A stretch of DNA of 64,000 bases. Origin: Lytechinus pictus (Eukaryota). The stretch's first letter is position 1, and every line of letters begins with the position of its first letter. The DNA is taken from assembly GCF_037042905.1 (NCBI RefSeq), contig NC_087250.1:28212001-28276000 (forward strand), written 5' to 3'. The position numbers and the translations under genes are program-made. Under the pieces are notes generated by a model. That model ran no database searches. It was not told where the DNA came from and saw only the letters and a program-made list of their open reading frames with translations. Positions 20,212 through 60,755 of this stretch are shown piece by piece.

Positions 20212-20386
20212 AAGCCTTGGTTACATTCACCGGCTCGTGGCCTTACGTCGAGTCAAAATTAGCAGTTTTAATCATCCTTGTACCAGCTACTACCAGCTAC
20301 ACGTGGGTGGTTTGTACAGGAATACCTAAAACTGCTGATTTTGTCTCGCCGTAAGGCAACCGGTCAAGGAATGTGACCAAGGTATT
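20212..20386. mobile_element. Short palindromic MITE (related copies at 50270-50404, ~58698, ~63982)
   Basis: Ends CCTTGGTTACATTC/GAATGTGACCAAGG with inner CCTTACG/CGTAAGG. Confidence 0.65.
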
Positions 20387-30128: not shown

Positions 30129-30152
30129 TTAAGCTCGAGTCGCTTTTAAGAC

Positions 30153-30845
30153 GGGGCCGAAATCTGCAAACTTGTTTGGCATAACTATGCCCTATCGCAG
30201 TTGGAAACCAAATACATTGTCGGTCTGTACAGGGACGATGGACTGGCTACTTTAAGACGCACCTCAGGCAGCATGCAGGGCCGACAGAGATAGAAAAACA
30301 CTCATCAAAGTCTTCCAAGAACTCGGGCTGAGAATAACAGTGCAAACCAATCTGAAACGGGTAGACTACCTAGATGTAACCTTAGATCTCGAGAATAACT
30401 CCTACCAACCCTTCAGAAAACCCAACGACACCCGATGTGTGAACGCCAACTCCAACCATCCCCCTACCAATCACTAAGCAAATTCCCACATCAGTACAAG
30501 CAAGAATCTCATCCCTATCTTCAAATGAAGAAAAAATTAAGACCGCAGCACCGGTATACAACGAAGCCCTGAGTAACAGCGGTTACCATGGTGACATCAA
30601 ATTCGCCAAAAGCCAAAAGTCCAACAAAACCAGGAAAAAACGCCATGGAAAAGTCACGTGGTTATACCCTACAGCAGTAATGTCAAAACCAACATCACAA
30701 TTAGCTATATACAGCTGCATGAAAAACGTAAATTCGATCATCAAATCACACAACGAAAAAGTCATCAGAAAATCAAAAGAAAAAGAGAACCCTAGCTGCG
30801 GAAAAAAACATGAAACTGCCGAGGGAAGGAAGACTGCCCTCTACG
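30153..30845 (+). mobile_element. Penelope-like retroelement, remainder of RT/thumb and Cys linker
   Basis: GAEICKLV, VGLYRDDGLA (catalytic YRDD), VDYLDVTLDL, PFRKPND, NSNHPP and NCRGKEDCPL. Frameshifted; the GIY-YIG domain is not seen. Confidence 0.85.
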
Positions 30846-30949
30846 ATTAAAAAAGTAGTTGCACAATATGGATCCCCATGTGGAAATAAATGAACTGAAT
30901 TAAAGAAAAGATATATATCTAAATATCTAAATAGCTATCAATATCTATT

Positions 30950-31990: not shown

Positions 31991-32006
31991 ATGTCTAAGA
32001 TTCAAG
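31991..32006 (+). CDS. IDH1: IDH1 coding exon 1 (MSKIQ-G)
   Basis: ATG TCT AAG ATT CAA G|GTGAGT; phase 1 matches exon 2. Confidence 0.85.
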
Positions 32007-35000
32007 GTGAGTGATCACGTCAAAATCAATCGTAAAGTAAGAAATGAAAACCCCCAGGTGATCGACTTAAGTCTGAAGAAGAAGGAACTGGGCCGGGCCG
32101 TAATTTTTAGGCTTTCTCAAAAAGCGAAAGCCATGGCCAATGGCAAAGCCAAAGGCAAAGGCAAGCCGGACGCGGGCTCGACTGTCGTCTGCGAGGAGGC
32201 CTACGCTACGGCTACAACAAAGTCCCGGTGAACTCCGGAGTGCGGGGATCATGAGATCATTAGATGGTGGTTTACTAATGGGTACATTATTGCCGCCGTC
32301 TACAGGAAAATTGAAGGCACAGCGCATGTGAAATTGAATCAAATTCCCACGAATTCCCCCCCCCCCCAAAAAAAAAAAATGTAAAAAATAAGTGTGGACT
32401 GTGGTGAGACTGAGAGTTAGACAGCTGGCAGCCGTCTGTTTCAAGTTTTTAAACATTTTTAAACATCGCTATCGACATCGTGCAGCCACCATTAGGGGAC
32501 TTGCAATGTAAAAAATCCCCCGTCGGGGCTCTTCAATTTTTGTCTTTAATCAATAAAAATTTTGAAAATTAATGCGATCAAAATGCAAATTAATATTCCC
32601 TCTTGGCATTAATTACCAAGGCAAGAAACTGAGAAAAATCAAGTTAAAAGGAACAAAAACAGTGACTTACCTCACTTTCCCGTTTTATCCGATCTTAAGT
32701 ACATTATACATAAATATATGGCCATTGAGTCCCCTGTATGGTGGTGTGACCTTAATTTGCACGTTACCTAATTTTGCGCAGGGTCGAATATCTCAATATC
32801 TAATATTTAGTAATAAATATATTGAAAAACTGATATCACTTACAGAAAAAGCGACTTAGAATTATTAAATATGGATATTTTCTTGAAGGTAAGGCCTCAA
32901 TTTGTGAAAATATTGGTATTAAAACATTGGCAAATTTTATTACCTTTTGCGTCTGCTCCGAGAAAATCCGAACTTCTCGGCAAGCATCAAGAAATCGCCA
33001 GTTTGTAAGCATAGGTCTCCAAATAGGTAAGTCAAATGTGATACCAACCGAATTTATGGCATTTTAACCTCCATCTGATACAATTAACTTACCTTTGTCT
33101 GCTTGATTTATTTTCTAAAGCTTTGCAAAACGTTTGTGCGCAAATTAAGGTCACACTTTTTTATGACACTTTTTCAGCCGAGCGTGCACTAGTAAATCAT
33201 CATGGAATTTTGAGATCGCGACACCGGCGAAACCCTTGGCCTACTTTATAATTCCGTCATGCTAATTTGACTTTGGAATCATGCCTTCCATTTGGTATTA
33301 ATGATTTTGATTAATTTTTTGTGAACTGTGAGAAATTTTAGATTGAAAATCAACTTCATGATAATTTTTAAAATGTGCGCAAATTATGGTCACCCCATCA
33401 TACAGATCGCGCTAGAATTTGGTGAGTGAAGCCAACAGAGTTCAGCTGAACAACCAACATAACAGAGACCGAAGCTTTTGGTCTAGGTGAGAGTGAGACT
33501 ACCACCTGTTTTGTTTTGAAACCGACCACATTGTCCTTGCGCGCGTTGAAATTATTGCAAACGATACGCTTGGGAGAGTAGGCGCAGTATCCATAGAAAC
33601 GGTAAGAATTGATTTTTCAATTCGCGTATATATCGGCGAACAACGAATACGACGGTTTTACATTTGCTCATTTTCACCCTTCTTTTGAAACTGACCGCCT
33701 GCGATACACTAAGTTTGCGGCCGATTCTTGTCGCAGTGGCGAAATATTTTGACTCTTTCAAATCAGTTCTATGTTTTTCATCAAAATTCGCTATTTTCCA
33801 GCATATTTTTCAAACGAAAAGCTGTTAAATTTATTTTGATTTCATGTAGGTCTTTAATGTGTCAGATATAATTTCATACTCGAGTCTAGTGTTACCGGTA
33901 ATTTCCTTTTTATTTAAATTTTTCAGGAGGAACCGTTGTTGAGATGCAAGGAGATGAAATGACAAGGTATTTATCCTCTTCTTTTTCTTCCTTTTGTTAT
34001 TTTCTTTTCCTTTTTACTTCGATCTACAGTTTAAATTTGTAGTTGATTAGCGCCATTTCAATTCCATTCCATTCCTTGTCTTTATTTGGCAATATGTCAT
34101 GATTGACTATTTTTGCCACCCATGCATGAAAAGTAGGGTACGGTAAAAATTTTATTTAGTATTATTATTTTTAATTATTTTTTTATTATTTCTTTCATTT
34201 TCATTCCTTTTTTCTATGACAAAAAAACGACTGACACTTGTCTGTATCACCTATAATGCATGGATTATACTCCTAGGCACATATGACTTCCAAATGATCG
34301 GTTATGTCCTCATGTACGCTTAACCAGTGTAAAGATGCGAAATACACATTGCGATGTGGATTTCTGTACCCTTATATGGAAGACCACTTTTGTTTCTAAT
34401 GGGGCGTTGAAAGAAACTTGCAATCAATTGCAAGTAAATTTTTGGTCCCTAAATCAATCATATATCTTGCAGTCAATTGCATATTAGTGATTGATTGCTA
34501 ATTTGCTCCTTGAAACAAGAAGATTAATCTGATTTGCTGCAGCTAACGTTCATGTATCAGTTGTAAAATTGCAACAGAATATTTGCAATTTCAAGATCGC
34601 AAATATGTTCTTGCAACACCCCCTAAGACTGCTTCATGCGTTCCCATTACACCTTTTACTGGGTTCCACAAAAATTGGTTTAAAAGAAAGCTGATGAGAA
34701 AGGGGTCATAATTTTGGCTGTTAATGTAGCTCACCCATGATAAGTTGGAGCAAAAATATTGAAAGCGAAAGCAAAACCCCACAAGCGCGCATGATATCTA
34801 CATCTTGGGCAGAATTGAACATTTACCCAGCAAGCCATACGCGTACGTTTTGCAGTCTAGCTCAATGAATTGAATCATATTGTGACGTCACCTCCTAAAG
34901 GTGTGCAGCAGTACATTTTGGACTGTACATACATTAATGTTGCTTGTTCAGCCTCCCCATGCCTTAATATCCATTACTATACCTGGGTGAAGAGTGGCAA

Positions 35001-38000
35001 TGATGGGCACCTTCTAATTAATACAATGTAAACCAGAGTATGCAGTGTACATGTTTTAAAGGTTAATTGTGCAATGCACATAATGTACATGTGAACTTGT
35101 GTATGAAGGTCTTCAAGTGTGAAAACAGCTAATGATTTGCCCTCATTCATTGATTAAAGATAGATAGAGACAATAGGCAAACAAACTTGTTGATATTACA
35201 CTTTACAGATAGTCTTAAAGTCACAGACCTTACATGTACTTGTAGCTCCCATTAGGGATAGATATAGGCAAATTGTTGAGGCCTGCGCTTTACAGACTTT
35301 AGAAGCCACAGACCTTAGTTCTCAATACACACATACAGGTATGTAGTAATAATCTTAAGTCACAGACCCCTGGGGGGGGGGTCACTTACATTGACGAGTG
35401 GATACCATGCGCGACCCCAAAACACGTAAAAAGGATGTCTTTTTCAAGATAGGGCACGTTACTTACGTAAAGTACACGAAAAAAGGGTATCTATTTTCGC
35501 TAGGAAGGCTACGTGTTTAGGGTCAAATTTGCGAGGGTATAACAAATTAATACTAAAATGTTTTATAAGGGATGTACTTTTAAGCACTACGTGTTTAGAA
35601 AAGTATGATTTGCGCGAGGTGTGGGAGGTGGGGCTGTACTATAAACCCAATGATTTAGGTAAAGGTGACGTCTGTATGTGACATAACAATTGAAATATCG
35701 CTGTACTTGTTTAGGGTGTAAATTCAGGGAAAACTTGCCAATAGTATTGTTTTGTTTCCAATACTTGTTAAGGGTAGGGTTTCACACGCCAATACTTGTG
35801 AAGGGGTGCATTTTCAGATTATGGAAAATACGTTTGGGTGCTTTTCGAGACCCCATGGTCGCGCATGGTATCCACTCGTCAATGGAAGTGGTCCCTCCGG
35901 GCACAGACCTTATTTCTCAATATAATGTCACAGATCTTAGTTCCATTCATCTGGCATGTTTTCACAAAATTGACATAGTCATTTGGGATTTACATTTGCA
36001 ATGGAAGTGTGAGAGTACTATAATAGGTGTGTACAAATAAAATAGATGTACATGTCCTGTAAAAAAAGGAAGTTATGGAATAATAATAGCCATCAATTTT
36101 AGAGGACAAGTCCACCTCAACAAAAAAAATTATTTGAATAAAAAAAGAAAAATCCAACAAGCATAACACTGAAAATTTCATCATGAATTGGATGTAAAAT
36201 AAGAACATTATGACATTATAAAGTTTTGGTTGATTTCATAAAACATTTATATGCACATCCTGGTGGGCATGCAAATGAGGAAACTGATGACGTGACCCAC
36301 TCACCTTTTGTATTGTTTTATAATATTCATTATTCTAATTATCTCCTCATTGTCAAGTAATTCACCCTTAACATGTAGAAATAGCATTGTTTTGATACTA
36401 TATGGTTCAATTGAGTTGATCCTTAAAGTCAAATCTGTAAAATAATGAAATATTGCATAATTCAAACAATAAAAAAACAAAAGGAGTATTGAGTGAGGGA
36501 CATTATCGACTGTCTCATTTGAATTGTGCCTATCACTGTTTAGTGAAAAATAGCATTCTTTAAAATGTCATAAAATTTTGTTATTTTACATCTGATTTTG
36601 ATGGAATTCTCAGCGTTAACCTAGTTAGGTTTTTCTGTATTCATACTAATCAACATTTTTCTGAGGTGAACTTAACCTTTAAGTGGAAGGTTTCTGATCA
36701 GGGAATATTTTATTCTTTATTTTTGAGTACTTCTTTAAGAACCATGTAAGTAGCGCTGCTAAACATAATACTAGTACTTGTTCCCAGTCTTATTTGGTCA
36801 GTAGTTGTTTACATTTGTTCTTTATCAATATGACATTGTGCTCTTCAGGGTTAAATGATAAGATAATGATTGAAGGTGACCTTCATGGATTCAGACTGGG
36901 AAATGAAAGACAAAGAGAGATAATTCATTCTTGAAATAAAGTTGGTAAAGTAATTGCTTGAGAGAGAGAGACGGACAGACCAACAGACTTTCACAGACAG
37001 ACATAATTTAAAGGGAGAGAAATGGTTGGGTCGGGGTGGTGTGAAAAATTTAACTTTTAAATAGTTTTGTGGGGGAAATATAACTTTTAGATCGTTTTGT
37101 GGGAAATATAACTTTAAGATAGTTTTGTATGTGTGTGGGGGGGATTTAACCTTTAGATAGTTTTGTGGGGGAAATATAACTTTTAGATAGTTTTGTGTGG
37201 TTAACTTTTAGATAGTTTTGTGGGGAAAATATAAGTTTTAGATAGTATTGTGGGGAAATAAAACTTTTAGATAGTTTTCTGGGGAAAATAAAACTTTTGG
37301 ATAGTTTTGTGGAGGAATATATAATTTTAGATAGTTTGATGGGAGAAATATAACTTTTAGATAGTTTTGTGGGGATATATCTTTTAGATAGTTTTGTGGG
37401 GGGGGGGGAATTATGGAACTTTTAGATAGTTTTGTGGGGGAAAATATTTTAGATAATTTTGTGGGGGAAAATACAACTTTGGTGGGGAAAATGTAACTCT
37501 TAGATAGTTTTGTGGGGAAAATATAACTTTTGGATAGTTTGTGGGGGAAAGTATAACTTTTAGATAGTTTTGTAGGGAAAAATTTAGATAGTAAGGGTCA
37601 GTTAATAGGCAATCAGAACAAAGCTCATATTTCTTTTCATTGTTCCAATGTTCTCAAATTTAGAGCTGTGATAGTTTGTAATGTATTGATCCATCAGACT
37701 ACGTTACATGTACATGTAACAGTCTCATGAGGGGCCATTTTGTCTCCTTAATGATTTTTTTCTACAGCATTCCATAGGAGGCCATCAAAATCAAACTTTT
37801 ATTTCCCTTCATTCAGAGTTATTCATTCAGAGATCTTTGGATAATACATCTGTTTGTCTCTAATATGTGTCTTTCTTTGTCTAATTAAAATACAGGATTA
37901 TATGGGAGACGATTAAAACCAAGCTGATATTTCCGTTCATTGATCTTAACATTCAGAGTTATGATCTTAGTATTCAGAACAGAGATGCAACAAATGACCA

Positions 38001-41000
38001 AGGTGAGTGACCTTTGTAAAAAACACACATACCCATCTATCACACATTACAAGATAAAGAAGAGCTTTTTATAAACCTACCTATCGATTGCACATTACAA
38101 GATAAAACAGACCTTCTTTCAGAAAACCTTCCTATCGATTGCACATTACAAGATCAAACAGACCTTCTTTCACAAAACATACCTATCAATTGCACATTAC
38201 AAGATAAAACAGACCTTCTTTCAGGAAACCTTCCTATCAATTGCTCATTACAAGATAAAACAGAGCTTCTTTCAGAAAACCTTTATATCGATTGCACATT
38301 AGAAGATCAAACAGAGCTTCTTTCACAAAACCTTCATATCATCTGCACATTACAAGATCAAACAGACCTTCTTTCACAAAACCTTTTTATCAATCGCACA
38401 TTACAAGATCAAACAGACCTTCTTTCACAAAACCTTCATATCAATCGCACATTCCAAGATCAAACAGACCTTCTTTTTATACAAATTACCTATCAATTGC
38501 ACATTACAAGATCAAACAGACCTTCTTTCCGAAAACCTTTATATCAATTGCACATTAGAAGATCAAACAGAGCTTCTTTTACAACCTACCTATCAATCGC
38601 ACATTACAAGATCAAACAGACCTTCTTTCACAAAGCGTTCTTATCGATTGCACATTATAAGATCAAACCTCTAGGTATCTGTTAGTCTTATTTTCATTTG
38701 AAATACTACAATGATTTGACTTGCGAGCTAATTGGGATATAAACTTCACTAATGCAAGGTCTGTGCAATGGATTGATTTACCAGCTCCCAGTCTGCTTTG
38801 TGAATTGGCAAGTATGCAGAACAAAAAAAAAAAATGCCTTGGTCAATCCCTGTACAGATTCTCATACACTGCAAGAAAACTTGCAAGCAATTTTCTCGCG
38901 ATGACAGAAAAACCGCAGGATGACTTTCGATGTTTCGTGTGGTTTTCATTGCGGCGTTTCACGCAGTTTTATTCTATTTCAGAAAAAAACGCAGAAAACT
39001 GTACAATGCTTTTTTGCAAAGTGAGAATAGCCCAATGACTGCAAGTTTGTTGATGGTGACTATGAATAATTTTGCTTTTACAAATTTGAATAGCATTTTT
39101 GGTCATAAGAAAAAAGCTCTCAAAGTAAAGTATAGATCTATGTAAAAATATGCTATTCAAAAGACTGCATAACAGTCTTTCAAAAATGAGGAGCAAATTG
39201 CGATGCGATACCAGGAAAACTACTAGTATTCCCTGAAGCATGACCAATGCTTGTAGACTTACTGTGCCAGACACATCTAGCATTACAACAACAAAAAAAC
39301 AGAAGCTTTCAGCTGATAGGCTACTACATCACCTGCACATTCATTGACCTACCAGCAAACACAAAATTATAAATCTCTTTAACAGTTTTTATTATTGATC
39401 ACCTCTACAATCACCAGATACATGTAGCAGATGGTAAATGGAAAAACATCAGGGCTTTTTTTTTTAATCAGTAGCAAATCATATCAATTTTCGTTGTAAC
39501 TTGTGATATATTTCTTGCAATTTGTTAATTTATCTTGATCTTAATTGATTGATCATTGCCAATAAATTTGTCCTCATTTTGAAAGCTGTGAATCATGATG
39601 TGTTAAAAAGAATTTTGTAACCCAGTACATGAGCAGTGTTTTACTCTAGAAAATACCTGCAAGAAAACACTGGAACTTAGAATACATGTGATAAGTGATT
39701 GCATTGATCATTGATTAATATCCCATACATGTACAAACAATCAATCACATGATTTAAGCTTTGAAGGTTCAAGTGGGCTACAAACATGTACTGTATTGTG
39801 CATGTGTGCAGCTGATTCCCAAACTTACCAGCAAGTTTATTTCTTTGATCTGTTGGTTTCACTGAGAGTTACATGTAAACCAAACCACTGTGGTCCAGTG
39901 GTTAGAGCATTGTACTCATTATCGCAAGGTTGTGAGTTCAAATCCCCACTCTGCCATTGTTTCCACTTTCAAATTGATAAAAAGGCCCAAGAGTAGGCCT
40001 ATACATGTATCTGTCGTCTATATAAAGGTCAGCCACTATAAACCTACATGTAGACATACAATTTTTCCTAGGTAATTGGTTATATACCAGCTTGGTGTTT
40101 ACCAGCGAAATGCTATCCCGCCGAATCCTACGGGAGTTTCAATAAACTGAAACTGATTGACTGATGAATTTTTCTGGGATGCAACATGTAGGTATATGAT
40201 TCAGAAAAAAAGTGAACCAAGTCCAAAATAACATGCAGTATCTTGTGTTGTTCCTGAATAAAAATTGAATAAGTTTACAATAAAACATGCTCAAACAATG
40301 ATATCAATTGCAAATTGGTAACTTTTTATTTATGATTATTTGTAATACAAGTTCATTTTAAATTGTATATATCCAGATTTACCTTTTTAAAAATGTCAAT
40401 CATTGCCAATTTGAGGAGTAAAAGTAGATTATGAATAAAACCTGTTTAAAAAAAACACTTGTGCACCTCTAATACAGTAGTTGGTTTATACGAATTTGGA
40501 ATTCTGAAATATTGCTTTTCAACTGATATATATGGTATTTCTTTTGTTTTATTCTACATGTAGTGACCGTTGACTGTGCTGAAGCTATCAAGAAATGTAA
40601 TGTAGGCATTAAGTGTGCTACCATTACACCAGATGAAAAGAGAGTTGAAGGTAAGTCTACTTAAATTAATTCAGAAATCTGGTGATTTTGACTCCTGTTG
40701 CCCGTAACACAAAGCTACATTGTAAGTGATCATAGAACAATTCTCTACGATTGATTCCTTTGACTACAATGTACAATCAATCGTGAAAATCAAGCGTACG
40801 ATTAATCGCTAACCTTTGTGTTATGGGACCAAGATCAAAGGATTGTTTATTCAGGGTCCTGTAACACGGTTTTTAGCGATTAATCGTACACTTGATTTTC
40901 ACGATTGATTGTGTATTGTAGTCAATGGAATCAATCGTAGAAAAGTGTTTTTACGATCATTGCTTAGCTTTGTGTTATGGGCCCCTGATCATGTTGGAAT

Positions 41001-44000
41001 CACCATTGTGTTGGGGACAGATCTGAGACTTCTAACTTGATGGTATGAATGTGTAATACCCAAGATATAATTAAAGAAAATCAATCAAGGAAATAATCAA
41101 TCCACAATCAAATCAATCACTTCAACTCAGCATCAGTTAAACTTTCCCCAAAATTCACATTCAATCTGACAGGATGATATGGTTCAGTGACTATATGAAC
41201 AAGTCTGGTATATGGACCTCCCTACCTTGTGAATTTTTTAATACAAAGTTTGCTTGGAAAATATTGACCAATGTATTTCAAATATTGCAGGACAATGTGA
41301 TTTTCTGACTGAATTGTCACTGCAGTGTACAGTATGTATTTTGATGCACAGCCTTTATAAAATCAATCAAAATCTGAAGGAATAAAAAAATAGGTCTTAA
41401 AACTAGACTTTGCCCATTTTTACTGCATTTTACCTCCTGTTCCACAATTATGGAAATGAAAATAATTACTTAAAAAACATTTTTTTGTCTCTTTTTAAGA
41501 GTGTTATTGTATTTTTATTTTCATGGATGATGATGGGAATCATTGTTATCATTTGTACGATCGTTATTAATAATGATAATAAATAAATAAATAAATAAAA
41601 TAAAATAAATCAAAATAGCAATAAAAAGGGAATAATAATGATGATCATCATCATAGAGAGTTGTACATTATATAGTGCATGTCACATATAATTATAACTT
41701 CTCTATGTATTATTATTATTTACATGTACCTCACCTGGGTTGAATGCAGCACAGTGTGGATGAATTTCTTGCTGAAGGAAACAAAGCCATGGTTCGGATT
41801 TTAACCCGCAACCCATTATTATTAAATTGCCCAAAAGCTACCATGGTTAATTTGCACAATGGGAGAGAAACAAAGATTCCCCTGAATGTTTGGTGAACAA
41901 TGATTTCCAGTATTATTATCTAGTATTGTGCTATTATTGTTAAATTTAAATTCATAAATTTATATGTATATACATTTTCTTTGAATATAGAATTCAACCT
42001 AAAGAAGATGTGGAAATCCCCAAATGGAACAATTAGAAACATTCTTGGTGGTACGGTCTTCAGGGAAGCTATCATCTGCAAAAACATTCCAAGACTGGTA
42101 GTTACATGGAATAAACCTATTGTTATTGGGCGTCATGCACATGCCGATCAGGTGAGGATGGATGGATGGAAGGTTGGTTGGTTGGTTGGTTGGTTGGTTG
42201 GTTGGATGGATGGATGGATGGATGGATGGATGGATGGATGGATGGATGGATGGATGGATGGATGGATGGATGGATGGATGGATGGATGGATGGATGGATG
42301 GATGGAGATGGATGGATGGATGGATGGATGGATGGATGGATGGATGGATGGATGGATGGATGGATGGATGGATGGATGGATGGATGGATGGATGGATGGA
42401 TGGATGGATGGACAGATGGATGGATGGATGTACGGACAGATGGATGGATGGATGTATGGACAGATGGATGGATTGATGGGTGGATGGATGGATGGGTAGA
42501 TTGGTAGGTGGGTGGATGGATGGATCGGTGGGTGGATAGATTGATAGAGCAATGGATAGATGGATGGATGGATGAATGAGTGAATCGATAGATGAATGGA
42601 TGGACCAATGGGCAGATACTCTCCATCTTATTCTTAAAGACATCTTCTCTTCTCTTCCTTTCTAACAGTACAAAGCAACAGACTTTGTAGTTCCTGGCAA
42701 GGGAAAGATTGAACTAACCTACACACCAGAAGATGGAAGTGAACCCAAGTCATTCACTGTTCATAACTTTGTAGATGGAGGTGGCGTTGCCATGGGAATG
42801 TTCAATACTGACGTATCTATTCAGAACTTTGCTCATTGTTGTTTCCGCTATGCTCTAGATCGGGGCTATCCACTTTACCTCAGGTTAGTTGGCATTGAAT
42901 GTTAAATGGTAGCCTGTTTTATTATATTGAGCTATATTATAATCAGTGGTAATCTATTCATGTAAAAGGGTTAAAATCAGGCTCCCATCAAATATCATAA
43001 AATGGGTTTCCTTTGAATATCATATAAACGGGTTAACATTGAATTCAAAATTACTGGTTTACCATTGTATACATTGCATACAGGTTACCATTGAATAAGA
43101 TAGGGTTACCATGTGATTAACTGGGTTGCCATCCTTTGAATATGATATAATGAACAGGTTATCATCAATATATTGTAGATTTGATACCATTGAATACTGT
43201 ATTTTAAACAGTTTTCATTGACTAATTACATAACCAGGTTACAATTGAATGTGAAATATTAATCATGATAATAAACAAAATACAATTGAATATACAAGAC
43301 AAATACAATATAGGTTACCACTGAATATAATAGGTTGCCATTGAATATTTAATCCTGTAATTATTTATTGCTATGATATTTCATCCCTCCTCAGCACAAA
43401 GAATACGATTTTGAAACGTTACGATGGTCGGTTTAAGGACATATTCCAGGAGATCTACGAGACGACATACAGAAGTGACTATGAGGCGAAGAATCTCTGG
43501 TACGAGCACAGATTGATTGATGATATGGTAGCCTTCGCAATGAAGAATGAAGGAGGATTCGTCTGGGCTTGCAAGAATTATGATGGAGATGTACAGAGCG
43601 ATTCTGTAGCACAAGGTAATAATAATGACTATTATGATGGTAATGTAGAGAGTGATTCTGTAGGACAGGGTAATAATAATGACTATTATGATGGTAATGT
43701 AGAGAGAGTGATTCTGTAGGACAGGGTAATAATAATGACTATTATGATGGTAATGTAGAGAGAGTGATTCTGTAGGACAGGGTAATAATAATGACTATTA
43801 TGATGGTAATGTAGAGAGTGATTCTTTAGGACAGGGTAATAATAATGACTATTATGATGGTAATGTAGAGAGAGTGATTCTCTAGGACAGGGTAATAATA
43901 ATGACTATTATGATGGTAATGTAGAGAGTGATTCTGTAGGACAGGGTAATAATAATGACTATTATGATGGTAATGTAGAGAGTGATTCTGTAGGACAAGG

Positions 44001-47000
44001 TAATAATAATGACTATTATGATGGTAATGTAGAGAGAGTGATTCTGTAGGACAGGGTAATAATAATGACTATTATGATGGTAATGTACAAAGTGATTCTG
44101 TAGGACAAGGTAATAATAATGACTATTATGATGGTAATGTAGAGAGTGATTCTGTAGGACAGGGTAATAATAATGACTATTATGATGGTAATGTAGAGAG
44201 TGATTCTGTAGGACAAGGTAATAATAATGACTATTATGATGGTAATGTAGAGAGAGTGATTCTGTAGGACAGGGTAATAATAATGACTATTATGATGGTA
44301 ATGTACAAAGTGATTCTGTAGGACAAGGTAATAATAATGACTATTATGATGGTAATGTAGAGAGTGATTCTGTAGGACAGGGTAATAATAATGACTATTA
44401 TGATGGTAATGTAGAGAGTGATTCTGTAGGACAAGGTAATAATAATGACTATTATGATGGTAATGTAGAGAGAGTGATTCTGTAGGACAGGGTAATAATA
44501 ATGACTATTATGATGGTAATGTACAAAGTGATTCTGTAGGACAAGGTAATAATAATGACTATTATGATGGTAATGTAGAGAGTGATTCTGTAGGACAGGG
44601 TAATAATAATGACTATTATGATGGTAATGTAGAGAGTGATTCTGTAGGACAGGGTAATAATAATGACTATTATGATGGTAATGTAGAGAGAGTGATTCTG
44701 TAGGACAGGGTAATAATAATGACTATTATGATGGTAATGTACAAAGTGATTCTGTAGGACAAGGTAATAATAATGACTATTATGATGGTAATGTAGAGAG
44801 TGATTCTGTAGGACAGGGTAATAATAATGACTATTATGATGGTAATGTAGAGAGTGATTCTGTAGGACAGGGTAATAATAATGACTATTATGATGGTAAT
44901 GTAGAGAGAGTGATTCTGTAGGACAGGGTAATAATAATGACTATTATGATGGTAATGTACAAAGTGATTCTGTAGGACAAGGTAATAATAATGACTATTA
45001 TGATGGTAATGTAGAGAGTGATTCTGTAGGACAGGGTAATAATAATGACTATTATGATGGTAATGTAGAGAGTGATTCTGTAGGACAAGGTAATAATAAT
45101 GACTATTATGATGGTAATGTAGAGAGAGTGATTCTGTAGGACAGGGTAATAATAATGACTATTATGATGGTAATGTACAAAGTGATTCTGTAGGACAAGG
45201 TAATAATAATGACTATTATGATGGTAATGTAGAGAGTGATTCTGTAGGACAGGGTAATAATAATGACTATTATGATGGTAATGTAGAGAGAGTGATTCTG
45301 TAGGACAGGGTAATAATAATGACTATTATGATGGTAATGTACAAAGTGATTCTGTAGGACAAGGTAATAATAATGACTATTATGATGGTAATGTAGAGAG
45401 TGATTCTGTAGGACAGGGTAATAATAATGACTATTATGATGGTAATGTAGAGAGTGATTCTGTAGGACAAGGTAATAATAATGACTATTATGATGGTAAT
45501 GTAGAGAGAGTGATTCTGTAGGACAGGGTAATAATAATGACTATTATGATGGTAATGTACAAAGTGATTCTGTAGGACAAGGTAATAATAATGACTATTA
45601 TGATGGTAATGTAGAGAGTGATTCTGTAGGACAGGGTAATAATAATGACTATTATGATGGTAATGTAGAGAGTGATTCTGTAGGACAAGGTAATAATAAT
45701 GACTATTATGATGGTAATGTAGAGAGAGTGATTCTGTAGGACAGGGTAATAATAATGACTATTATGATGGTAATGTACAAAGTGATTCTGTAGGACAAGG
45801 TAATAATAATGACTATTATGATGGTAATGTAGAGAGTGATTCTGTAGGACAGGGTAATAATAATGACTATTATGATGGTAATGTAGAGAGTGATTCTGTA
45901 GGACAGGGTAATAATAATGACTATTATGATGGTAATGTAGAGAGAGTGATTCTGTAGGACAGGGTAATAATAATGACTATTATGATGGTAATGTACAAAG
46001 TGATTCTGTAGGACAAGGTAATAATAATGACTATTATGATGGTAATGTAGAGAGTGATTCTGTAGGACAGGGTAATAATAATGACTATTATGATGGTAAT
46101 GTAGAGAGTGATTCTGTAGGACAAGGTAATAATAATGACTATTATGATGGTAATGTAGAGAGAGTGATTCTGTAGGACAGGGTAATAATAATGACTATTA
46201 TGATGGTAATGTACAAAGTGATTCTGTAGGACAAGGTAATAATAATGACTATTATGATGGTAATGTAGAGAGTGATTCTGTAGGACAGGGTAATAATAAT
46301 GACTATTATGATGGTAATGTAGAGAGAGTGATTCTGTAGGACAAGGTAATAATAATGACTATTATGATGGTGATGTAGAGAGTGATTCTGTAGGACAGGG
46401 TAATAATAATGACTATTATGATGGTGATGTAGAGAGTGATTCTGTAGGACAGGGTAATAATAATGACTATTATGATGGTGATGTAGAGAGTGATTCTGTA
46501 GGACAGGGTAATAATAATGACTATTATGATGGTAATGTACAAAGTGATTCTGTAGCACAAGGTAATAATAATGACTATTATGATGGTAATGTAGAGAGTG
46601 ATTCTGTAGGACAGGGTAATAATAATGACTATTATGATGGTAATGTAGAGAGAGTGATTCTGTAGGACAGGGTAATAATAATGACTATTATGATGGTAAT
46701 GTACAAAGTGATTCTGTAGGACAAGGTAATAATAATGACTATTATGATGGTAATGTAGAGAGTGATTCTGTAGGACAGGGTAATAATATAGATATATGGA
46801 CTGCTTTGAGAGGCATGGTTGTTTCTAGAGGCTCAAGGGGACTGCAACGCGACTATGCCCGAGGGCTTTGCCCGAGGGCATGGTCTGGCCGGTGCAGTAC
46901 CCGCGAGCCGAAAGAAACAACCATGTCTCGAAAATAAAGGCAGTCCATATATATTTTATGAACCGAATTAAACGTTAGATCTAGTCTAGGTATAACTTAG

Positions 47001-50000
47001 GCTAGATCGTATCCAAATTAAGCCTAAAACTAAAGCCCTAGCCCAGGCTAACGTTAGGCCCAAATTATTTTTTAGGCCCTAACAGTTAGGCCTATATTTA
47101 TTTTAGGAACCAAATTAGGGTCTGAAACAGATCTAGATTCTACAGTAGATCTGACTGAGCCTTATTCTTAATCTCCAATAGAGTCTAACTTTAGATCTAA
47201 CGTTAGATCCAACTTAGGCCTAACTTACGTCAGATCTGACTTAGATTAAATGGAACATTTAATACGTCTAACTTAGTTAGTTAGATCTAGGCTATCATCT
47301 AGATCTAGAGGGTTACATCTAGATCTAGTTCTACTCTAGTCTTACTTCTGAGCTAACGTAGGCCTAAGTTAGATCATCACTTTTATTAGAGTTTTGTTTA
47401 GACCTTACGCCCCGACCCAGCTTAACGTTATCGTTTGTCATAATGGTACCTGGCTACAACGTTAGAAAGTGCAATGATGACTCAGCCGACTCACCTTTTG
47501 CGAGCATGCATTTGTTTTTTAATGAACAGTCAACTGCAACAATACTTGATGATTGATACATCTGTTATGTCCTTAATAAATTCGTCTTCTTTTCAATAAT
47601 GCCGTATTTTTTAACAGGAGTAAACAAGCAAAACTCAAAGATCGGCATCGTTCCATCGATATGTCATATCCGTTGCGCGCACTTGCGCAATAAGCGCGTA
47701 AATGCGCGAATTGTCTAAAACTTTCGATCAAATCGCGCGGATATTTATGGTATCCGCAATTACCGCAGGAAGCAACATTTTGCACGCAATCAAATGGAGA
47801 TCTCAGCCAAATTTTGCCATGCCCGTCGTTAAGGGGCGGGTCAGGGGGCAACGGGCAGAAATCTTGTTAACTATGCCCGTTGCCCTTGGTAACCACCTTA
47901 GTTTGTTGTTTTGCAGGCATGGTTGATTACATGACCTCAATTTCGACCAATCAGAGGAACGGATTATTCGACATTCTTAAAGAGAGGTTTATAATAATGA
48001 CTATTATGATGGTAATGTAGAGAGTGATTCTGTAGGACAGGGTAATAATAATGACTATTATGATGGTAATGTAGAGAGTGATTCTGTAGGACAGGGTAAT
48101 AATAATGACTATTATGATGGTAATGTACAAAGTGATTCTGTAGGACAAGGTAATAATAATGACTATTATGATGGTGATGTACAGAGTGATTCTGTAGGAC
48201 AGGGTAATAATAATGACTATTATGATGGTGATGTACAGAGTGATTCTGTAGGACAGGGTAATAATAATGACTATTATGATGGTGATGTAGAGAGTGATTC
48301 TGTAGGACAGGGTAATAATAATGACTATTATGATGGTGATGTACAGAGTGATTCTGTAGGACAGGGTAATAATAATGACTATTATGATGGTAATGTACAG
48401 AGTGATTCTGTAGGACAGGGTAATAATAATGACTATTATGATGGTGATGTAGAGAGTGATTCTGTAGGACAGGGTAATAATAATGACTATTATGATGGTG
48501 ATATACAGAGTGATTCTGTAGGACAAGGTAATAATAATGACTATTATGATGGTAATGTACAGAGTGATTCTGTAGGACAGGGTAATAATAATGACTATTA
48601 TGATGGTGATGTACAGAGTGATTCTGTAGGACAGGGTAATAATAATGACTATTATGATGGTAATGTACAAAGTGATTCTGTAGGACAGGGTAATAATAAT
48701 GACTATTATGATGGTGATGTACAGAGTGATTCTGTAGGACAAGGTAATAATAATGACTATTATGATGGTAATGTACAGAGTGATTCTGTAGGACAAGGTA
48801 ATAATAATGACTATTATGATGGTGATGTACAGAGTGATTCTGTAGGACAGGGTAATAATAATGACTATTATGATGGTAATGTAGAGAGTGATTCTGTAGG
48901 ACAGGGTAATAATAATGACTATTATGATGGTAATGTAGAGAGTGATTCTGTAGGACAGGGTAATAATAATGACTATTATGATGGTAATGTAGAGAGTGAT
49001 TCTGTAGGACAGGGTAATAATAATGACTATTATGATGGTAATGTAGAGAGTGATTCTGTAGGACAGGGTAATAATAATGACTATTATGATGGTAATGTAG
49101 AGAGTGATTCTGTAGGACAGGGTAATAATAATGACTATTATGATGGTGATGTACAGAGTGATTCTGTAGGACAGGGTAATAATAATGACTATTATGATGG
49201 TAATGTACAGAGTGATTCTGTAGGACAAGGTAATAATAATGACTAGTATGATGATGATGTACAGAGTGATTCTGTAGGACAGGGTAATAATAATGACTAT
49301 TATGATGGTGATATGGTTCATAACCACTAGTACATGCATGGTAGGTTGGTAACTTTGCCCTTATGGCAACTGCCGTGGTAACAGTGTTCAACAGCCATTC
49401 AGGTTTCAATGGTAGGTATTAACTGCATTTATGTTAAAATTAATTGTCAATCCTTATGAAAATTGACCATGGTCACATTAGAATTCTCAACCAATTTCTG
49501 ATAGAAAAAGTGAAGAACGAGTGCTTTTGAGGCTGCTGTCTTTGACATGATATAATCTTTATTTTGATATTGTTTATGGACCCCTGGGTACGATGATACC
49601 AAGGCCCGTAACACAAAGCTTAGCAATGTTCATAAAACACTTTTCTACGATTGATTGCATTGACTACAATGTACAATCAATCATGAAAATCAAGAGTATG
49701 ATCAATCGCTAACCTTTGTGGAATGGGACCCAGATCTGTCCTGATGGAGGAAGTGAAGAACGATTGCTTTGGAGGCTTCTTTCTTTGACATGGTAAATTC
49801 TTTATTTTGATATTGAGTTATACATGTAGATCTACATGTATTAATGAGTCTCTGCTAGTACTCTCTCATTCCCGAGTAATCCATCTTTGACATGATAGAT
49901 TAATATATTTATTTTGATATTAGGTTATGGATCCCTGGGTATGATGACGTCAGTTCTGATCTGTCCCGATGGAAGGACGATTGAGTCCGAGGCTGCTCAT

Positions 50001-52260
50001 GGAACGGTGACAAGACATTATCGTATGCATCAACAAGGCAAAGAAACGTCTACAAACTCAGTTGGTAAGTACTACTGAGATTCACAAAATGCAAGCTTAA
50101 TACACTGTCATATTCTTATAGGCCACCGCACACCTTTTGGAATGAAGCGTCTAATCATTTGATGCAAATGTGTAGATGTGGATCCTCTCCTTGCGCAACG
50201 TTCCAAATCAACAGTGGGCTTACGACCGAGATTCAAAATTGCAAGTGTAAGACACTGTCATATTCCTTATACCTCGGTCACATTTGCTCTACGTCGGCTG
50301 TACGGCGAGTTGAAAACAGCCAATATGTAACTGGAAAAAAATATGTTAAAACGGCTGTCTTAGACTCGCCGTACGGCCGCCGTGGAGCAAATGTGACCAA
50401 GGTAAAAAGGCCACCGCACACCTTGCAATTGATCTGCAATCCAATTTTGGAATGAAGCGTCTTATAATTTGATGCAAATAAGTAGATGTGGATCCTCTTA
50501 TTGCACAACGTTGCGAATCATCAGTGGGCTTACTACTGAGATTCAAACATGCAAGCGTAAGACACTGTCATATTCCTAAAGGCTTCACATCTTACAATTG
50601 ATCTGTAATCCGATTTTGGAATGAAGCGTCTTATCATTTGATGCAAATAAGTAGATATATTGCACAACGTTGCGAATCATCATATGAATTCATATTTATA
50701 TTGAAATCTAAGACTGTACTATCCTCTTATTAGAATAAAATCAATTTCAGTATCTAATTATTATGACATCATAGCAATCGTACCATAGGCTACGAATTGA
50801 AGGGAAATTGGCGTTTACTCCATAGAAGTATTAGTACTATCAAATTGAATCCAAAATAGAAAGATTATATTCATACATATTTTCAGAAATAAGCAACATG
50901 CGATTAGATCTGAAATCATTTGTAATCCAGTTGTAAAATGTATGGTGTTCCTTAGGGGTTCATAATAATGTGTGTCTGGATAGTTGATCATCACCTACCT
51001 TACAAACTATGATATGGAAATATATCGTCCCCAATCAATACATTGAAGACAAAAACAAAATTAATATCTTTTTTTTCTGCTAAGACTGAAACGAGAATGG
51101 AGATGGGGAAAAATGATAATTATGGATTACTTTTTTCCCCATTTGCAAAAATTGTTTTCTCACAAGGTGACAGACTATTGTCTGATCATATTTATGTAAA
51201 AAAAAAGTTGAAATTTGGCAAATTTGCGACATATAGCATTCCCATGACAACAACAATGAAATCATTATGAAGTCACATTTATGAATCATTGTCATGTCAT
51301 GAGGTTCCACAATTTTAAGATGAATTCTGAGACTTGAATTATGAAATACATTTATTGTTATTAAAGTAATGATAAATTTATAAACTATATAGATTTTCTG
51401 AGCATTACTTTCATTACCCAATGCTGTTTGACTCATATTATAGCATCCATATTTGCCTGGACCAGGGGTCTTTCACATCGTGCTAAGCTGGACAGTAATG
51501 AAGCCCTTGCTAAGTTCTCTGCTGCTTTAGAAGAAGCATGCATCGAGACTATAGAGGGCGGTATAATGACCAAAGATCTTGCAATCTGCATCAAAGGAAT
51601 GGCAAAGTAAGTAATGTTTCATTTTGAGTATAGTGAGTTTGCTTAATTGGTCTATGCTAACTTTCATAGAATTTTTGCTTGGTTTAACTATGGAGAGCCA
51701 ATTGGGGCACGAATTCCTTACAATACACATTGACTTGACACCCTAACTTTTCATAATTGTCCGGGAATGATAACTGAAGTATTTTTCTTCATTATGAAAG
51801 CAAAAGGAAACATAATAGGAAACATACTTTTTGCTTTGTCTCATTCCACATGGTCTAATACTAGTTTGTCTTCATCCAATTTGTATTACACTGTTTAGTC
51901 TAATTGCCATTTAGCCCTTTGTATAATTTCCAGTTCGGCAAAATCCATCTTGTCCAATATGCACTTGTTGTTTATGATTTGATAAATTGTTTATGAAACA
52001 AGTTTTTCATTTGACAACATCCAAAATGATAATAGATAAAGTGAAAATTAGACTCTTTGGCCTGTAGTCTAAAGTCGGGTTTGAATTAAACTCTGACTAT
52101 GTCAACACGTTTGAATTCCTGAAGCCATCTCTTCTATGTGATTTTATCTTTTGTTTTTCTCTCTTTCATCTATTCTTACAGTGTTGTCCGTTCTGACTAT
52201 GTCAACACGTTTGAATTCATTGATAAAGTTGCTGAAGCTGTCGCTGCAAAGTGTAAGTGA
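31991..52260 (+). CDS. IDH1: NADP-dependent isocitrate dehydrogenase, cytosolic type; join(31991-32006,33927-33966,37896-38002,40564-40650,41991-42151,42669-42883,43395-43615,49924-50064,51444-51606,52182-52260), 1230 nt, 409 aa
   Basis: Spliced translation [152 protein letters not shown]. All 9 introns are GT-AG with matching phases. Confidence 0.96.
32734..33405. mobile_element. MITE in IDH1 intron 1
   Basis: TIR CTGTATGGTGGTGTGACCTTAATTTGCAC/GTGCGCAAATTATGGTCACCCCATCATACAG. Confidence 0.75.
33927..33966 (+). CDS. IDH1: IDH1 exon 2 ([13 protein letters not shown])
   Basis: TTTCAG| acceptor, AG|GTATTT donor. Confidence 0.95.
34401..34623. mobile_element. Short MITE
   Basis: Ends GGGGCGTTGAAAGAA/TTCTTGCAACACCCC. 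Confidence 0.65.
35368..35901. mobile_element. MITE with CCC..GGG ends
   Basis: Inner TIR CATTGACGAGTGGATACCATGCGCGACC/GGTCGCGCATGGTATCCACTCGTCAATG; 7-8-bp TSD CACAGAC(C). Confidence 0.85.
36103..36678. mobile_element. Kolobok-like MITE (related fragment at ~9908-10385)
   Basis: TTAG|AGGACAAGTCCACCTCA..TGAGGTGAACTTAACCT|TTAA. Confidence 0.7.
37045..37592. repeat. ~31-33-bp minisatellite (ATAACTTTTAGATAGTTTTGTGGGGAAAT)
   Basis: About 17 degenerate units. Confidence 0.92.
37896..38002 (+). CDS. IDH1: IDH1 exon 3
   Basis: [40 protein letters not shown]| and G|GTGAGT. Confidence 0.96.
38030..38668. repeat. ~50-51-bp minisatellite directly after the exon-3 donor
   Basis: Unit ATTGCACATTACAAGATCAAACAGACCTTCTTTCACAAAACCTTCCTATCA, about 12 copies. 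Confidence 0.93.
39885..40165 (+). mobile_element. tRNA-derived SINE
   Basis: A box TGGTCCAGTGG (39891), B box GAGTTCAAATCCC (~39934), simple-repeat tail AATAAACTGAAACTGA. Confidence 0.7.
40564..40650 (+). CDS. IDH1: IDH1 exon 4
   Basis: [34 protein letters not shown]| and G|GTAAGT. Confidence 0.96.
40695..40987. mobile_element. Two ~135-bp MITEs in opposite orientation (third copy at 49600-49733)
   Basis: GCCCGTAACACAAAG..CTTTGTGTTATGGG ends. Copy 2 (40852-40987) is the reverse complement of copy 1 (40695-40833). Confidence 0.85.
41991..42151 (+). CDS. IDH1: IDH1 exon 5 (contains the R100/R109/R132-equivalent residues)
   Basis: [60 protein letters not shown]| and CAG|GTGAGG. Confidence 0.97.
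42156..42605. repeat. (GGAT)n/(GGTT)n microsatellite filling intron 5
   Basis: Read directly; begins 4 nt after the donor. Confidence 0.97.
42669..42883 (+). CDS. IDH1: IDH1 exon 6
   Basis: [47 protein letters not shown]| and AG|GTTAGT. Confidence 0.97.
43395..43615 (+). CDS. IDH1: IDH1 exon 7
   Basis: [42 protein letters not shown]| and CAAG|GTAATA. Confidence 0.97.
43577..46788 (+). repeat. 54/56-bp tandem array derived from the exon-7/intron-7 junction, left block (~58 units)
   Basis: Unit GTAATAATAATGACTATTATGATGGTAATGTAGAGAGTGATTCTGTAGGACAGG compared with the exon end TATGATGGAGATGTACAGAGCGATTCTGTAGCACAAG|GTAATAATAATGACTAT. Confidence 0.97.
46789..47990. mobile_element. 1.2-kb non-TIR insertion with a 160-bp terminal hairpin (Crypton-like non-autonomous element?)
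   Basis: Flanked by an ATAATA direct repeat (46783-46788, 47991-47996). Hairpin at 46792-46952, no TIR, CCAATCAG near the other end. The family assignment is tentative. Confidence 0.75.
47991..49313 (+). repeat. 54-bp exon-junction array, right block (~24 units)
   Basis: Same unit, without the 56-bp variant; many units carry GGTGATGTACAGAGT, closer to the exon sequence. Confidence 0.97.
49924..50064 (+). CDS. IDH1: IDH1 exon 8
   Basis: [53 protein letters not shown]| and G|GTAAGT. Confidence 0.97.
50045..50690. repeat. ~150-170-bp degenerate tandem repeat beginning inside exon 8, with a MITE at 50270-50404
   Basis: AACGT..CAGT.GG..TACTACTGAGATTC..CACTGTCATATTC recurs at ~50045, 50197, 50507 and (partial) 50666. 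Confidence 0.8.
51444..51606 (+). CDS. IDH1: IDH1 exon 9
   Basis: [60 protein letters not shown]| and AA|GTAAGT. Confidence 0.97.
52182..52260 (+). CDS. IDH1: IDH1 exon 10 ([26 protein letters not shown])
   Basis: Long pyrimidine tract then TTACAG|; TGA at 52258-52260. Confidence 0.95.
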
Positions 52261-52281
52261 CTGGAAAGTAGCAAACTGTGA
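52258..52281 (+). other. IDH1: Candidate stop-codon readthrough extension encoding PTS1 (X-L-E-S-S-K-L-stop)
   Basis: TGA CTG GAA AGT AGC AAA CTG TGA. Confidence 0.75.
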
Positions 52282-52301
52282 ATCCTTAACTCCATAAATT
52301 A

Positions 52302-52307
52302 AATAAA
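52302..52307 (+). terminator. Candidate polyadenylation signal AATAAA (another at 52762-52767)
   Basis: Canonical hexamer 3' of both stops, with T-rich sequence downstream. The region is AT-rich, so the hit is not specific. Confidence 0.35.
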
Positions 52308-52870
52308 TTAAAGTCTTATTCTATGTCTTAATCGTATAAAGTCAAATGTATTTTTTTTTTCAGGCGGGAAATTCAGTAACAAATTTATGTCGGATCTTTT
52401 GTTTCAGCTGCTTGAAAGTTTATTTAATATGAAAATCATTTCATGAATGTAGTATTGATCAGTGAATATTGTCTGCATAGTGACACAAGGAAATCAATTC
52501 ATAGCCCTGTCTTACACATAGTGTTTTGATTGGTCCAATCAATCACAATTATGGAAAGCCAACAAATACCGAATGCATATGACTATTGAAAGTGTTTTCT
52601 AAATACAGTGTCAGCATCATTGTTGATAAGTCAATGTACATGTCTGTTTCCAGAGGGATGTTGTTTACATTTAATTTTAAAATTGATTTCCATAGTTGAG
52701 ACTGACTGGATCAGTTACAATCTTGTGTGAAACAAGCAATGATGAGATCAATTTAAGATATAATAAAAGAAAATGGATTTAGGATATTACGTTCTAATGG
52801 CTTCACAGAGCAGTTATATAAAAATGAGTTATTAAAATGTTGATTGACATAAAACGTCTTCCACCAAATC

Positions 52871-53464: not shown

Positions 53465-53764
53465 TGTTTGTTTGATAGGGGGTTGAATGAAAGGAAGATT
53501 AAGTTAGTGATAGCAGTGTTCATACATTTGTTTGATAGGGGGTTGAATGAAAGGAAGATTAAGTTAGTGATAGCAGTGTTCATACATTTGTTTGATAGCG
53601 GGTTGAATGAAAGGAAGATTAAGTTGGTGATAGCAGTGTTCATACATTTGTTTGATAGGGGGTTGAATGAAAGGAAGATTAAGTTAGTGATAGCAGTGTT
53701 CATACATTTGTTTGATAGCGGGTTGAATGAAAGGAAGATTAAGTTGGTGATAGCAGTGTTCATA
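53465..53764. repeat. 60-bp tandem repeat, 5 copies
   Basis: Near-identical consecutive 60-nt lines (TTTGATAGGGGGTTGAATGAAAGGAAGATTAAG..). Confidence 0.97.
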
Positions 53765-60189: not shown

Positions 60190-60755
60190 CAACTTCGCCG
60201 GTTGAAAATAATCAGCAGTGCGCTGCCTGCATATAACTGGCCCCAATGAAGAATAATCAGCGCCACCTAAATCTAAATCGGCACCGGACAAGAATAATCG
60301 GCGCCATCTGGTTATAAATCGGCGCCGGTAAAGAAAAATCGACGCTGCCTGAGTTCTTAACCGGCGCCGATCAAGGATAATCAGCGCCACCTAAATCTAA
60401 ATCGGGGCCGGACAAGAATAATCAGCGCCATCTGGTTATAAATCGGCGCTGCCTGAGTCTTAACCGGTGCCGATCAAGAATAATCAGCTCCACCTAAATC
60501 TAAATCGGCGCCGGACAAGAATAATCAACATCACCTGGTTAAAAATCGGCGCCAGTAAAAAATAAACGGCGCCTCCTGGTTCTAAATCGGCGCCAGTCGA
60601 TTATGAATTGCCGCTGCCTGAATCTTACGTGACGCCGGTCAAGAATAATCAGCGTCCCCTGGTTCCAATAAATAGGCGCCGGTAGAATAATGAAGAAGGG
60701 CCTATTGCCAACCAAATCTAGATCGGCGCCGGTCAAGAATGATCAGCGGCACCTA
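60190..60755. repeat. ~20/40-bp GGCGCC-centred minisatellite
   Basis: Units such as AATAATCAGCGCCACCTAAATCTAAATCGGCGCCGGACAAG. Confidence 0.85.

What the first reader, a model, noticed from the sequence alone, without database searches (positions are those of the whole stretch)
37981..52218. Recurring pattern: intronic duplications anchored on exon edges at up to six IDH1 junctions
Seen: beyond the exon-7 array, there are degenerate copies of the exon-8 acceptor plus exon start (49495-49820), a 150-170-bp repeat beginning in the last ~20 nt of exon 8 (50045-50690), and a 27-bp exact copy of exon 10 placed 100 bp upstream (52092-52118). Weaker cases are the intron-6 repeats CAGGTTACCATTGAATA resembling CAG|GTTAGTTGGCATTGAAT, and the 51-bp intron-3 unit sharing GAT-GCA..CAAG..GACCTT..ACATACC with the exon-3 junction. 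Inference: a mutational process, or a selective filter, repeatedly seeds tandem duplications at splice junctions while leaving one intact exon copy. Such a process could drive intron growth and junction sliding in this genome.
Basis: partly seen in the sequence, partly recalled or inferred. Interest (0 to 1): 0.75.

Follow-up and report, generated by a model that had tools for sequence, protein, structure and literature searches.

The report
Splice-junction "mirage" repeats in urchin IDH1
In a sea-urchin isocitrate dehydrogenase gene, four exon edges (likely five) have partial copies in the neighbouring intron, a repeat type already described in lancelets and a few human genes; the copies are most likely tolerated by-products of ordinary local DNA duplication that lengthen introns without changing the protein.

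Summary
The gene is an intact 10-exon Lytechinus IDH1 (409 aa, identical to an annotated L. pictus protein). The exon-8 donor is a likely fifth. A relative's contigs show a 113-nt exon-10 junction duplication with the same breakpoint and a 74-nt exon-8 donor unit, one contig each. This is the known "mirage" class (amphioxus; human F7 intron 7), and this scan noted it before in other genes of this genome and in other animals. Enrichment at junctions is unresolved: 4 of 18 against 11.9% (p=0.16) or 3.9% (p=0.005) local background, in a gene picked for the pattern. Intron growth is shown (exon-7 array is 71% of intron 7); junction sliding is not. Best reading: ordinary tandem duplication, kept because the exon-proximal splice site likely still wins.

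The parts
31991..52260 (+). IDH1 (cytosolic NADP isocitrate dehydrogenase). Coding exons 31991-32006, 33927-33966, 37896-38002, 40564-40650, 41991-42151, 42669-42883, 43395-43615, 49924-50064, 51444-51606, 52182-52260; all introns GT-AG
   Evidence: 409 aa, no internal stop; exon 6 100% to two proteins named Lytechinus pictus; 0 differences from P0001, 1 from P0002
37607..37680 (+). Older decayed copy of the exon-3 5' part (new here)
   Evidence: 49/74 identities; BLAST E 0.016
37739..37842 (+). Decayed copy of the intron-2 end plus exon-3 start, 128 nt upstream; keeps a pyrimidine tract and AG, carries an in-frame stop (new here)
   Evidence: 70/109 identities; E 3e-5; z 5.5; contexts; codon table
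38043..38668 (+). 51-bp minisatellite, 12.4 copies, starting 40 nt into intron 3; exon origin not supported
42156..42604 (+). 4-bp microsatellite starting 4 nt after the exon-5 donor; not exon-derived
   Evidence: (E5 donor p=0.91)
42888..43379 (+). Degenerate repeats of the first ~55 nt of intron 6; junction-adjacent, exon contribution not above chance
43577..49309 (+). Exon-7 donor mirage array: 54/56-nt units (39 nt exon + 15 nt intron), 82 spare donors, 218-bp higher-order repeat in the left block
   Evidence: (z 12.5)
46788..47986 (.). About 1.2-kb insertion splitting the array, with an internal inverted repeat at 46792-46952; probably a mobile element (inferred)
49512..49821 (+). Exon-8 acceptor mirage: tail of copy A (49512-49537), copy B (49539-49780, AG lost, split by an element), head of copy C (49782-49821)
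   Evidence: (z 6.5); parts also on a relative's contigs, table 8
49603..49720 (.). High-copy short element inserted in copy B; same family as 40700-40983 in intron 4
   Evidence: summed contig depth >160,000 against ~30-50 beside it
50070..50690 (+). Intron-8 repeat, three decayed units, one split by a high-copy palindromic element (about 50267-50407); likely an old exon-8 donor mirage
   Evidence: relative's joint 50070 to 50011, table 5c
52092..52127 (+). Remnant of a 113-nt duplication of the intron-9 end plus exon-10 start: 27 exact nt, a 13-nt gap, 7 more nt; its left part is replaced by repeat DNA ending at about 52096
   Evidence: (z 12.9); relative's joint 52240 to 52128, table 5

Best explanation
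These are mirage repeats: local head-to-tail duplications of about 54-130 nt that cross an exon-intron junction, most likely made by the genome's ordinary duplication processes and likely kept because the splice site next to the intact exon still gives the normal mRNA. SHOWN: same-strand copies lie on the intron side of an intact exon, and those at the exon-3, exon-7 and exon-8 edges hold unspliced exon-plus-intron sequence; the protein is unchanged; copies have decayed, been hit by mobile elements, or (exon 7) grown into a 5.7-kb array with block-wise homogenisation; the exon-8 and exon-10 duplications are shared with a relative. INFERRED: duplications wholly inside an exon are purged; junction-crossing ones are near-neutral because the first donor or last acceptor is used; conserved exons keep such copies recognisable for longer than intron-only pairs; array growth is by slippage or unequal exchange.
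For: 4 of 18 edges significant. Local duplication is common here: 61 of 387 probes outside the gene have a same-strand copy within 1.2 kb, 11.9% per side, and mid-intron probes give 13.1% per side. Spliced exon-exon probes gain at most 6 score points over the better half at 8 of 8 junctions tested, so there is no sign of an mRNA template. The copies differ in age and state, and some spare acceptors are lost. The relative's 113-nt joint matches the window's breakpoint, with 2 nt fitting either side. RNA depth is 19.7 and 39.0 over exon 8 and 0 in the bins holding copy A and intron-8 unit 1. In human F7, identical downstream pseudo-donors stay silent because the most upstream site is chosen (PMC1557585, abstract and passages). 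Amphioxus mirages did not disturb splicing (PMC3087553 passages).
Against: Against the fairer 'edge of an array' background (30 one-sided hits in 387 probes, 3.9% per side), 4 of 18 is about fivefold high (p=0.005); doubling that background to allow for detection bias still gives p=0.047. Repeats also begin within 5 nt of the donors of introns 5, 6 and 8, though only 3 of 18 intron-side probes pass the strict cut-off. No RNA joint was displayed, so use of the exon-proximal site is not shown directly. RNA depth of 16.5 and 19.5 on the gene's strand at 51998-52100 is unexplained.
Confidence: 0.68

Rival explanations
1. Duplications arise preferentially at splice junctions, through transcription- or splicing-coupled breaks, R-loops, polymerase pausing or nucleosome edges at exon borders.
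For: About fivefold excess over the array-edge background. Arrays start within 40 nt of 5 of 9 donors (introns 3, 5, 6, 7, 8). The exon-8 donor carries repeats in both the window and the relative. The origin of amphioxus mirages is called unclear in PMC3087553.
Against: The gene was chosen for the pattern. Against the 'any copy' background p=0.16. 0 of 7 edges of a putative neighbouring gene show copies, though its exons are unverified. The one-sided geometry follows from selection alone.
Confidence: 0.17
2. The copies are used: alternative or recursive splice sites, or decoys that tune IDH1 splicing. The second exon-7 donor would add 18 residues in frame.
For: All 82 spare donors keep GT, and the first is in frame with no stop. 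The exon-3 copy keeps a good acceptor. In human 6-16 and CBS the nearest pseudo-sites are used (as described in PMC1557585, passage).
Against: Later donors shift the frame. The exon-3 copy has a stop. Exon-8 copy B and the exon-10 copy have lost the acceptor. RNA depth is 0 in the bins of copy A and intron-8 unit 1, at low coverage.
Confidence: 0.08
3. The copies are partial reinsertions of reverse-transcribed IDH1 RNA, or assembly errors.
For: The 27-nt exon-10 copy is exact and in the window lacks intron sequence on its left.
Against: Copies hold intron ends and no exon-exon joins. Most are 64-85% diverged and carry insertions. Exon-8 and exon-10 duplications appear in a relative's contigs. 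The length of the exon-7 array was not checked against reads.
Confidence: 0.04

Closest known systems
Amphioxus 'mirage' minisatellites (Adh3, globins BflGb6 and BflGb9, troponin C, PGBD5). PMC3087553 and PMC3902484, passages read; the original Adh3 paper was not held
   Same: Tandem copies of an exon-intron boundary at either donor or acceptor; unit sizes of 10-160 bp; many but not all copies keep AG/GT; homogenisation within clusters; proposed as a route to intron gain.
   Different: Here in a sea urchin; 4-5 edges in one gene; one array has 82 spare donors and a 218-bp higher-order period; several copies are old and split by mobile elements. No echinoderm case came up in searches, which cover only the open library.
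Human junction-spanning minisatellites: F7 intron 7 (37 bp), 6-16, CBS intron 13, LMNB2, PDGF intron 4. PMC1557585, abstract and passages
   Same: First monomer spans the exon-intron boundary, so the donor is reiterated; the most upstream site is normally used.
   Different: One array per gene with 5-25 pseudo-sites; donors only; splice-site choice tested experimentally there, not here.
Intron gain by tandem duplication and internal tandem repeats at exon-intron boundaries (PMC2812944, passages; PMC4974935, listing only)
   Same: Local tandem duplication of gene sequence that includes splice signals.
   Different: No new intron or shifted junction was found here; the coding sequence is unchanged.

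Membership tests
Mirage minisatellite | Same-strand tandem copies whose unit spans an exon-intron boundary | tested here: met
   Exon-7 donor, exon-8 acceptor, exon-3 acceptor; exon 10 through the relative's joint (one contig); exon-8 donor likely. Not met for the exon-3 and exon-6 donors.
Mirage minisatellite | Copies lie in the intron next to an intact exon | tested here: met
   Intact 409-aa ORF; all copies intronic.
Mirage minisatellite | Many but not all copies keep AG/GT signals | tested here: met
   82 spare GT donors; AG kept in exon-3 copy 1, an AG present at exon-8 copy C, lost in exon-8 copy B and the exon-10 copy.
Mirage minisatellite | Normal splicing is not disturbed | tested here: inconclusive
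Mirage minisatellite | Copy number varies between haplotypes or cells | tested here: inconclusive
   Only between-species differences seen: 74-nt exon-8 donor unit and 113-nt exon-10 unit in the relative. No haplotype data for the exon-7 array.
Mirage minisatellite | Concerted evolution within the cluster | tested here: met
   Exon-7 array: 16 unit types among 81 units, the commonest three in 24, 14 and 13 copies; 218-bp higher-order repeat at 97% in the left block only.
Intron gain or sliding by tandem duplication | A spare splice site is recruited so that exon structure changes | tested here: not met
   Protein identical to P0001 and the same length as P0003, P0008 and P0010. Intron positions in other species were not compared.
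Reverse-transcribed mRNA insertion | Copies contain spliced exon-exon joins | tested here: not met
   8 of the 9 exon-exon junctions tested; none gains more than 6 points over a single half.

The most novel reading that the evidence does not exclude
Sea-urchin genomes have a mutational bias that seeds tandem duplications at splice junctions, hitting roughly one exon edge in five in affected genes and recurring at the same junction in related species, so that introns grow outward from their own splice sites as a genome-wide process.
Probability: 0.17. Interest if true: 0.7.

Novelty: new member of a known kind. Interest (0 to 1): 0.3.

Why it matters
As it stands it is a dense, datable example of a known but little-studied repeat class, in a group where my searches found no published case. 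It shows that one junction array can supply 71% of an intron. It also offers a natural test of splice-site choice with 82 competing donors. It would matter much more if a genome-wide test showed real targeting of junctions, since that would link splicing to where duplications arise and explain mirages, whose origin the amphioxus paper calls unclear. In practice such copies can mislead gene prediction and read mapping.

Tried and rejected
No whole genome is held, so the genome-wide test could not be run; the window was used as background. Exon-3 donor as source of the 51-bp unit: rejected. Exon-6 end as part of the intron-6 repeats: rejected. The 30-bp array at 37046-37581 as a derivative of the exon-3 acceptor: rejected (p=0.20-0.82). 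The exon-10 copy as an alternative last exon: rejected by reading the sequence, since the nearest upstream AG puts it out of frame and its acceptor side is repeat DNA. Selection for weaker spare donors near exon 7: the first six are AGG|GT, but 56 of 82 are, so the run has about a 10% chance and is not claimed (counts). Spliced-mRNA origin: rejected. One search listed no indexed holder on record as RNA; two raw RNA runs of the same species label were laid instead. In one search three high-copy elements took most of the rows, so 70 joints, 377 differences and 1,272 loose ends were not shown, including any RNA joints. The original Adh3 mirage paper was not held. No supplements were read; the mirage alignments of PMC3087553 are in its supplements.

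Full report
GENE. The region is a 10-exon cytosolic NADP isocitrate dehydrogenase on the + strand, 31991-52260. All nine introns are GT-AG and the spliced frame gives 409 residues without a stop. Exon 6 is 100% identical to two proteins named Lytechinus pictus; the whole translation differs from them at 0 and 1 positions. No whole genome is held.

UNIFORM TEST. For each of the 18 exon edges I aligned the 40 exonic nucleotides (or the whole exon if shorter) to the nearest 1.2 kb of the flanking intron and compared with 300 dinucleotide shuffles. Four beat every shuffle: exon-3 acceptor (z 5.5), exon-7 donor (12.5), exon-8 acceptor (6.5) and exon 10 (12.9). BLAST agrees (E 3e-5, 1e-63, 3e-12, 1.5e-8). 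The other 14 did not pass.

EXON-7 DONOR. The unit is the last 39 nt of exon 7 plus the first 15 nt of intron 7. There are 83 donor motifs including the real one: 56 with AGG before GT and 27 with AAG. Spacings are 54 nt (65), 56 nt (16) and one of 1,262 nt where an insertion interrupts. The left block has a 218-bp higher-order period at 97%; the right block has only 54-nt units and is slightly closer to the exon (4.9 against 5.5 differences per unit). Use of the second donor would add 18 residues in frame; the third and fourth shift the frame. Without the insertion the array is 4,496 nt, 71% of intron 7 and 24% of all IDH1 intron DNA.

EXON-8 ACCEPTOR. The unit is about 114 nt (40 intron, 74 exon). 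The intron holds the tail of one copy, a full copy split by a short element, and the head of a third. The element is very high-copy and has relatives in intron 4. The full copy has lost its AG. Contigs of a related organism align to 49468-49571 and 49773-49947, so the duplication is older than the split.

EXON 10. The 27-nt exact copy starts 10 nt inside the exon, so in the window alone it does not span the junction. It continues, after a 13-nt gap, with 7 more exon nucleotides. One contig of the relative joins 52240 back to 52128, a 113-nt step, with 2 nt fitting either side; the window's copy ends at that same point, and 113 minus 13 gives the 100-nt offset. The copy is therefore most likely the remnant of a duplication of 54 nt of intron plus 59 nt of exon, whose left part was replaced by repeat DNA. 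The tool marks the letters between the two sides of that joint as not known, and it rests on one contig.

Two decayed copies lie at 37739-37842 (70/109) and 37607-37680 (49/74). The nearer one keeps a pyrimidine tract and AG and has a stop in the exon's frame; 4 of its 9 changed codons are silent.

EXON-8 DONOR. The intron-8 repeat is real (p=0.001). One contig of the relative goes from 50070 back to 50011 with 14 letters between, a 74-nt unit holding the last 54 nt of exon 8; summed depth there is 155-194 against about 34 for single contigs, which the tool warns is not a copy number. Taking 50011 as a prediction, the exon piece starting there matches 35 of 48 positions in the three window units at the expected place (p=0.001; 0.0007-0.017 over four lengths; whole 54 nt with free gaps p=0.024). 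I count it as a likely old mirage.

WEAK CASES. Adding the exon-3 or exon-6 end to the alignment gains nothing over shuffled exon ends (p=0.74-0.92 and 0.11-0.48; 0.62-0.87 and 0.63). The intron-6 repeats derive from the first ~55 nt of intron 6 (p<=0.003). The start of intron 3 is only marginally like the 51-bp unit (p=0.02-0.06). Both arrays sit next to a junction but are not shown to contain exon.

IS IT MORE THAN BACKGROUND? Of 387 probes outside the gene, 46 had a copy to the left and 46 to the right (11.9% per side); 30 had a copy on one side only (3.9% per side). Of 107 mid-intron probes, with the exon-7 array left out, the rates were 13.1% and 4.7%. Four of 18 gives p=0.16 against the first rate and 0.005 against the second; five of 18 gives 0.054 and 0.0005. 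The probes are not independent and the gene was chosen for this pattern, so these figures overstate the case. Seven edges of a putative neighbouring gene with unverified exons gave 0 of 7. Enrichment is suggested, not established.

RNA. Two raw RNA runs of the same species label were laid on 49320-52400 (2 of 3 such runs listed). Exon 8 has depth 19.7 and 39.0 and exon 9 15.6 and 21.5, all on one strand; the bins holding exon-8 copy A and intron-8 unit 1 have 0. No RNA joint was displayed because high-copy elements filled the tables. The bin 51998-52100 has 16.5 and 19.5 on the same strand; it overlaps dispersed repeat DNA, which probably explains it, but this was not resolved.

MECHANISM. Shown: same-strand copies holding unspliced exon-plus-intron sequence, no exon-exon joins at 8 junctions tested, an unchanged protein, different ages, sharing with a relative, and a high local duplication rate. 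Inferred: a duplication across a donor leaves the normal mRNA if the first donor is used, and across an acceptor if the last is used; duplications inside exons are purged; survivors decay or expand. The human F7 experiments support first-donor choice (PMC1557585, abstract and passages), in mammalian cells rather than sea urchin. I put this at about 0.68, junction-directed mutation at 0.17 and functional use at 0.08.

KNOWN KIND. Tandem duplications of exon-intron boundaries are named mirages in amphioxus Adh3, globins, troponin C and PGBD5 (PMC3087553 and PMC3902484, passages), and junction-spanning minisatellites are described in human F7, 6-16, CBS, LMNB2 and PDGF. Searches listed no echinoderm case and no genome-wide enrichment test; I judged most hits from listings, and subscription journals are largely absent. 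Earlier notes of this scan describe the same pattern in at least six other genes of this genome and in other animals; these are unchecked AI notes, and two gave me the F7 lead.

VERDICT. Observation partly confirmed, interpretation partly supported. A new, dense member of a known class; interest 0.3. The open question is whether junctions are truly targeted, which needs the genome-wide test.

Noticed in passing
window 46788-47986: About 1.2-kb insertion inside the exon-7 array with an internal inverted repeat (46792-46952, 72%); no other copy in the window; element class not determined.
   Followed up: partly
window 51998-52100: RNA depth of 16.5 and 19.5, almost all on the IDH1 strand, just upstream of the exon-10 copy; overlaps dispersed repeat DNA; source unresolved.
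   Followed up: partly
window 37046-37581: G-rich 30-bp minisatellite, 18 copies, ending just before the older exon-3 copy; no significant likeness to the junction.
   Followed up: yes
window 42156-42604: 4-bp microsatellite of about 113 units starting 4 nt after the exon-5 donor and filling most of the 517-nt intron.
   Followed up: partly
window 23190-26125, minus strand: Open frames of 676 and 273 aa that look like a broken LINE-type retroelement (reading by eye, not searched).
   Followed up: no
window 1-1380 and 30130-30850: Two fragments that look like decayed retroelement coding sequence of one family (by eye, not searched).
   Followed up: no
window 16570-20870: Four exon-like open segments on the + strand with splice-like ends; frames do not join cleanly, gene unidentified; no junction copies at 7 edges.
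   Followed up: partly
window 8467-9200 and 20993-21860: A family of 13/35/145-bp nested repeats present at two places, with internal inverted arrangement.
   Followed up: no
window 2960-4254, 53467-53764, 55857-56749, 60249-60597: Further minisatellites (222, 60, 177 and 41/103 bp) not linked to any exon found; they set the local background rate.
   Followed up: partly
window 51525 and 51580: RNA reads differ from the window in exon 9 (15/15 and 19/19 at 51525; 9/13 and 4/9 at 51580), most likely alleles.
   Followed up: no
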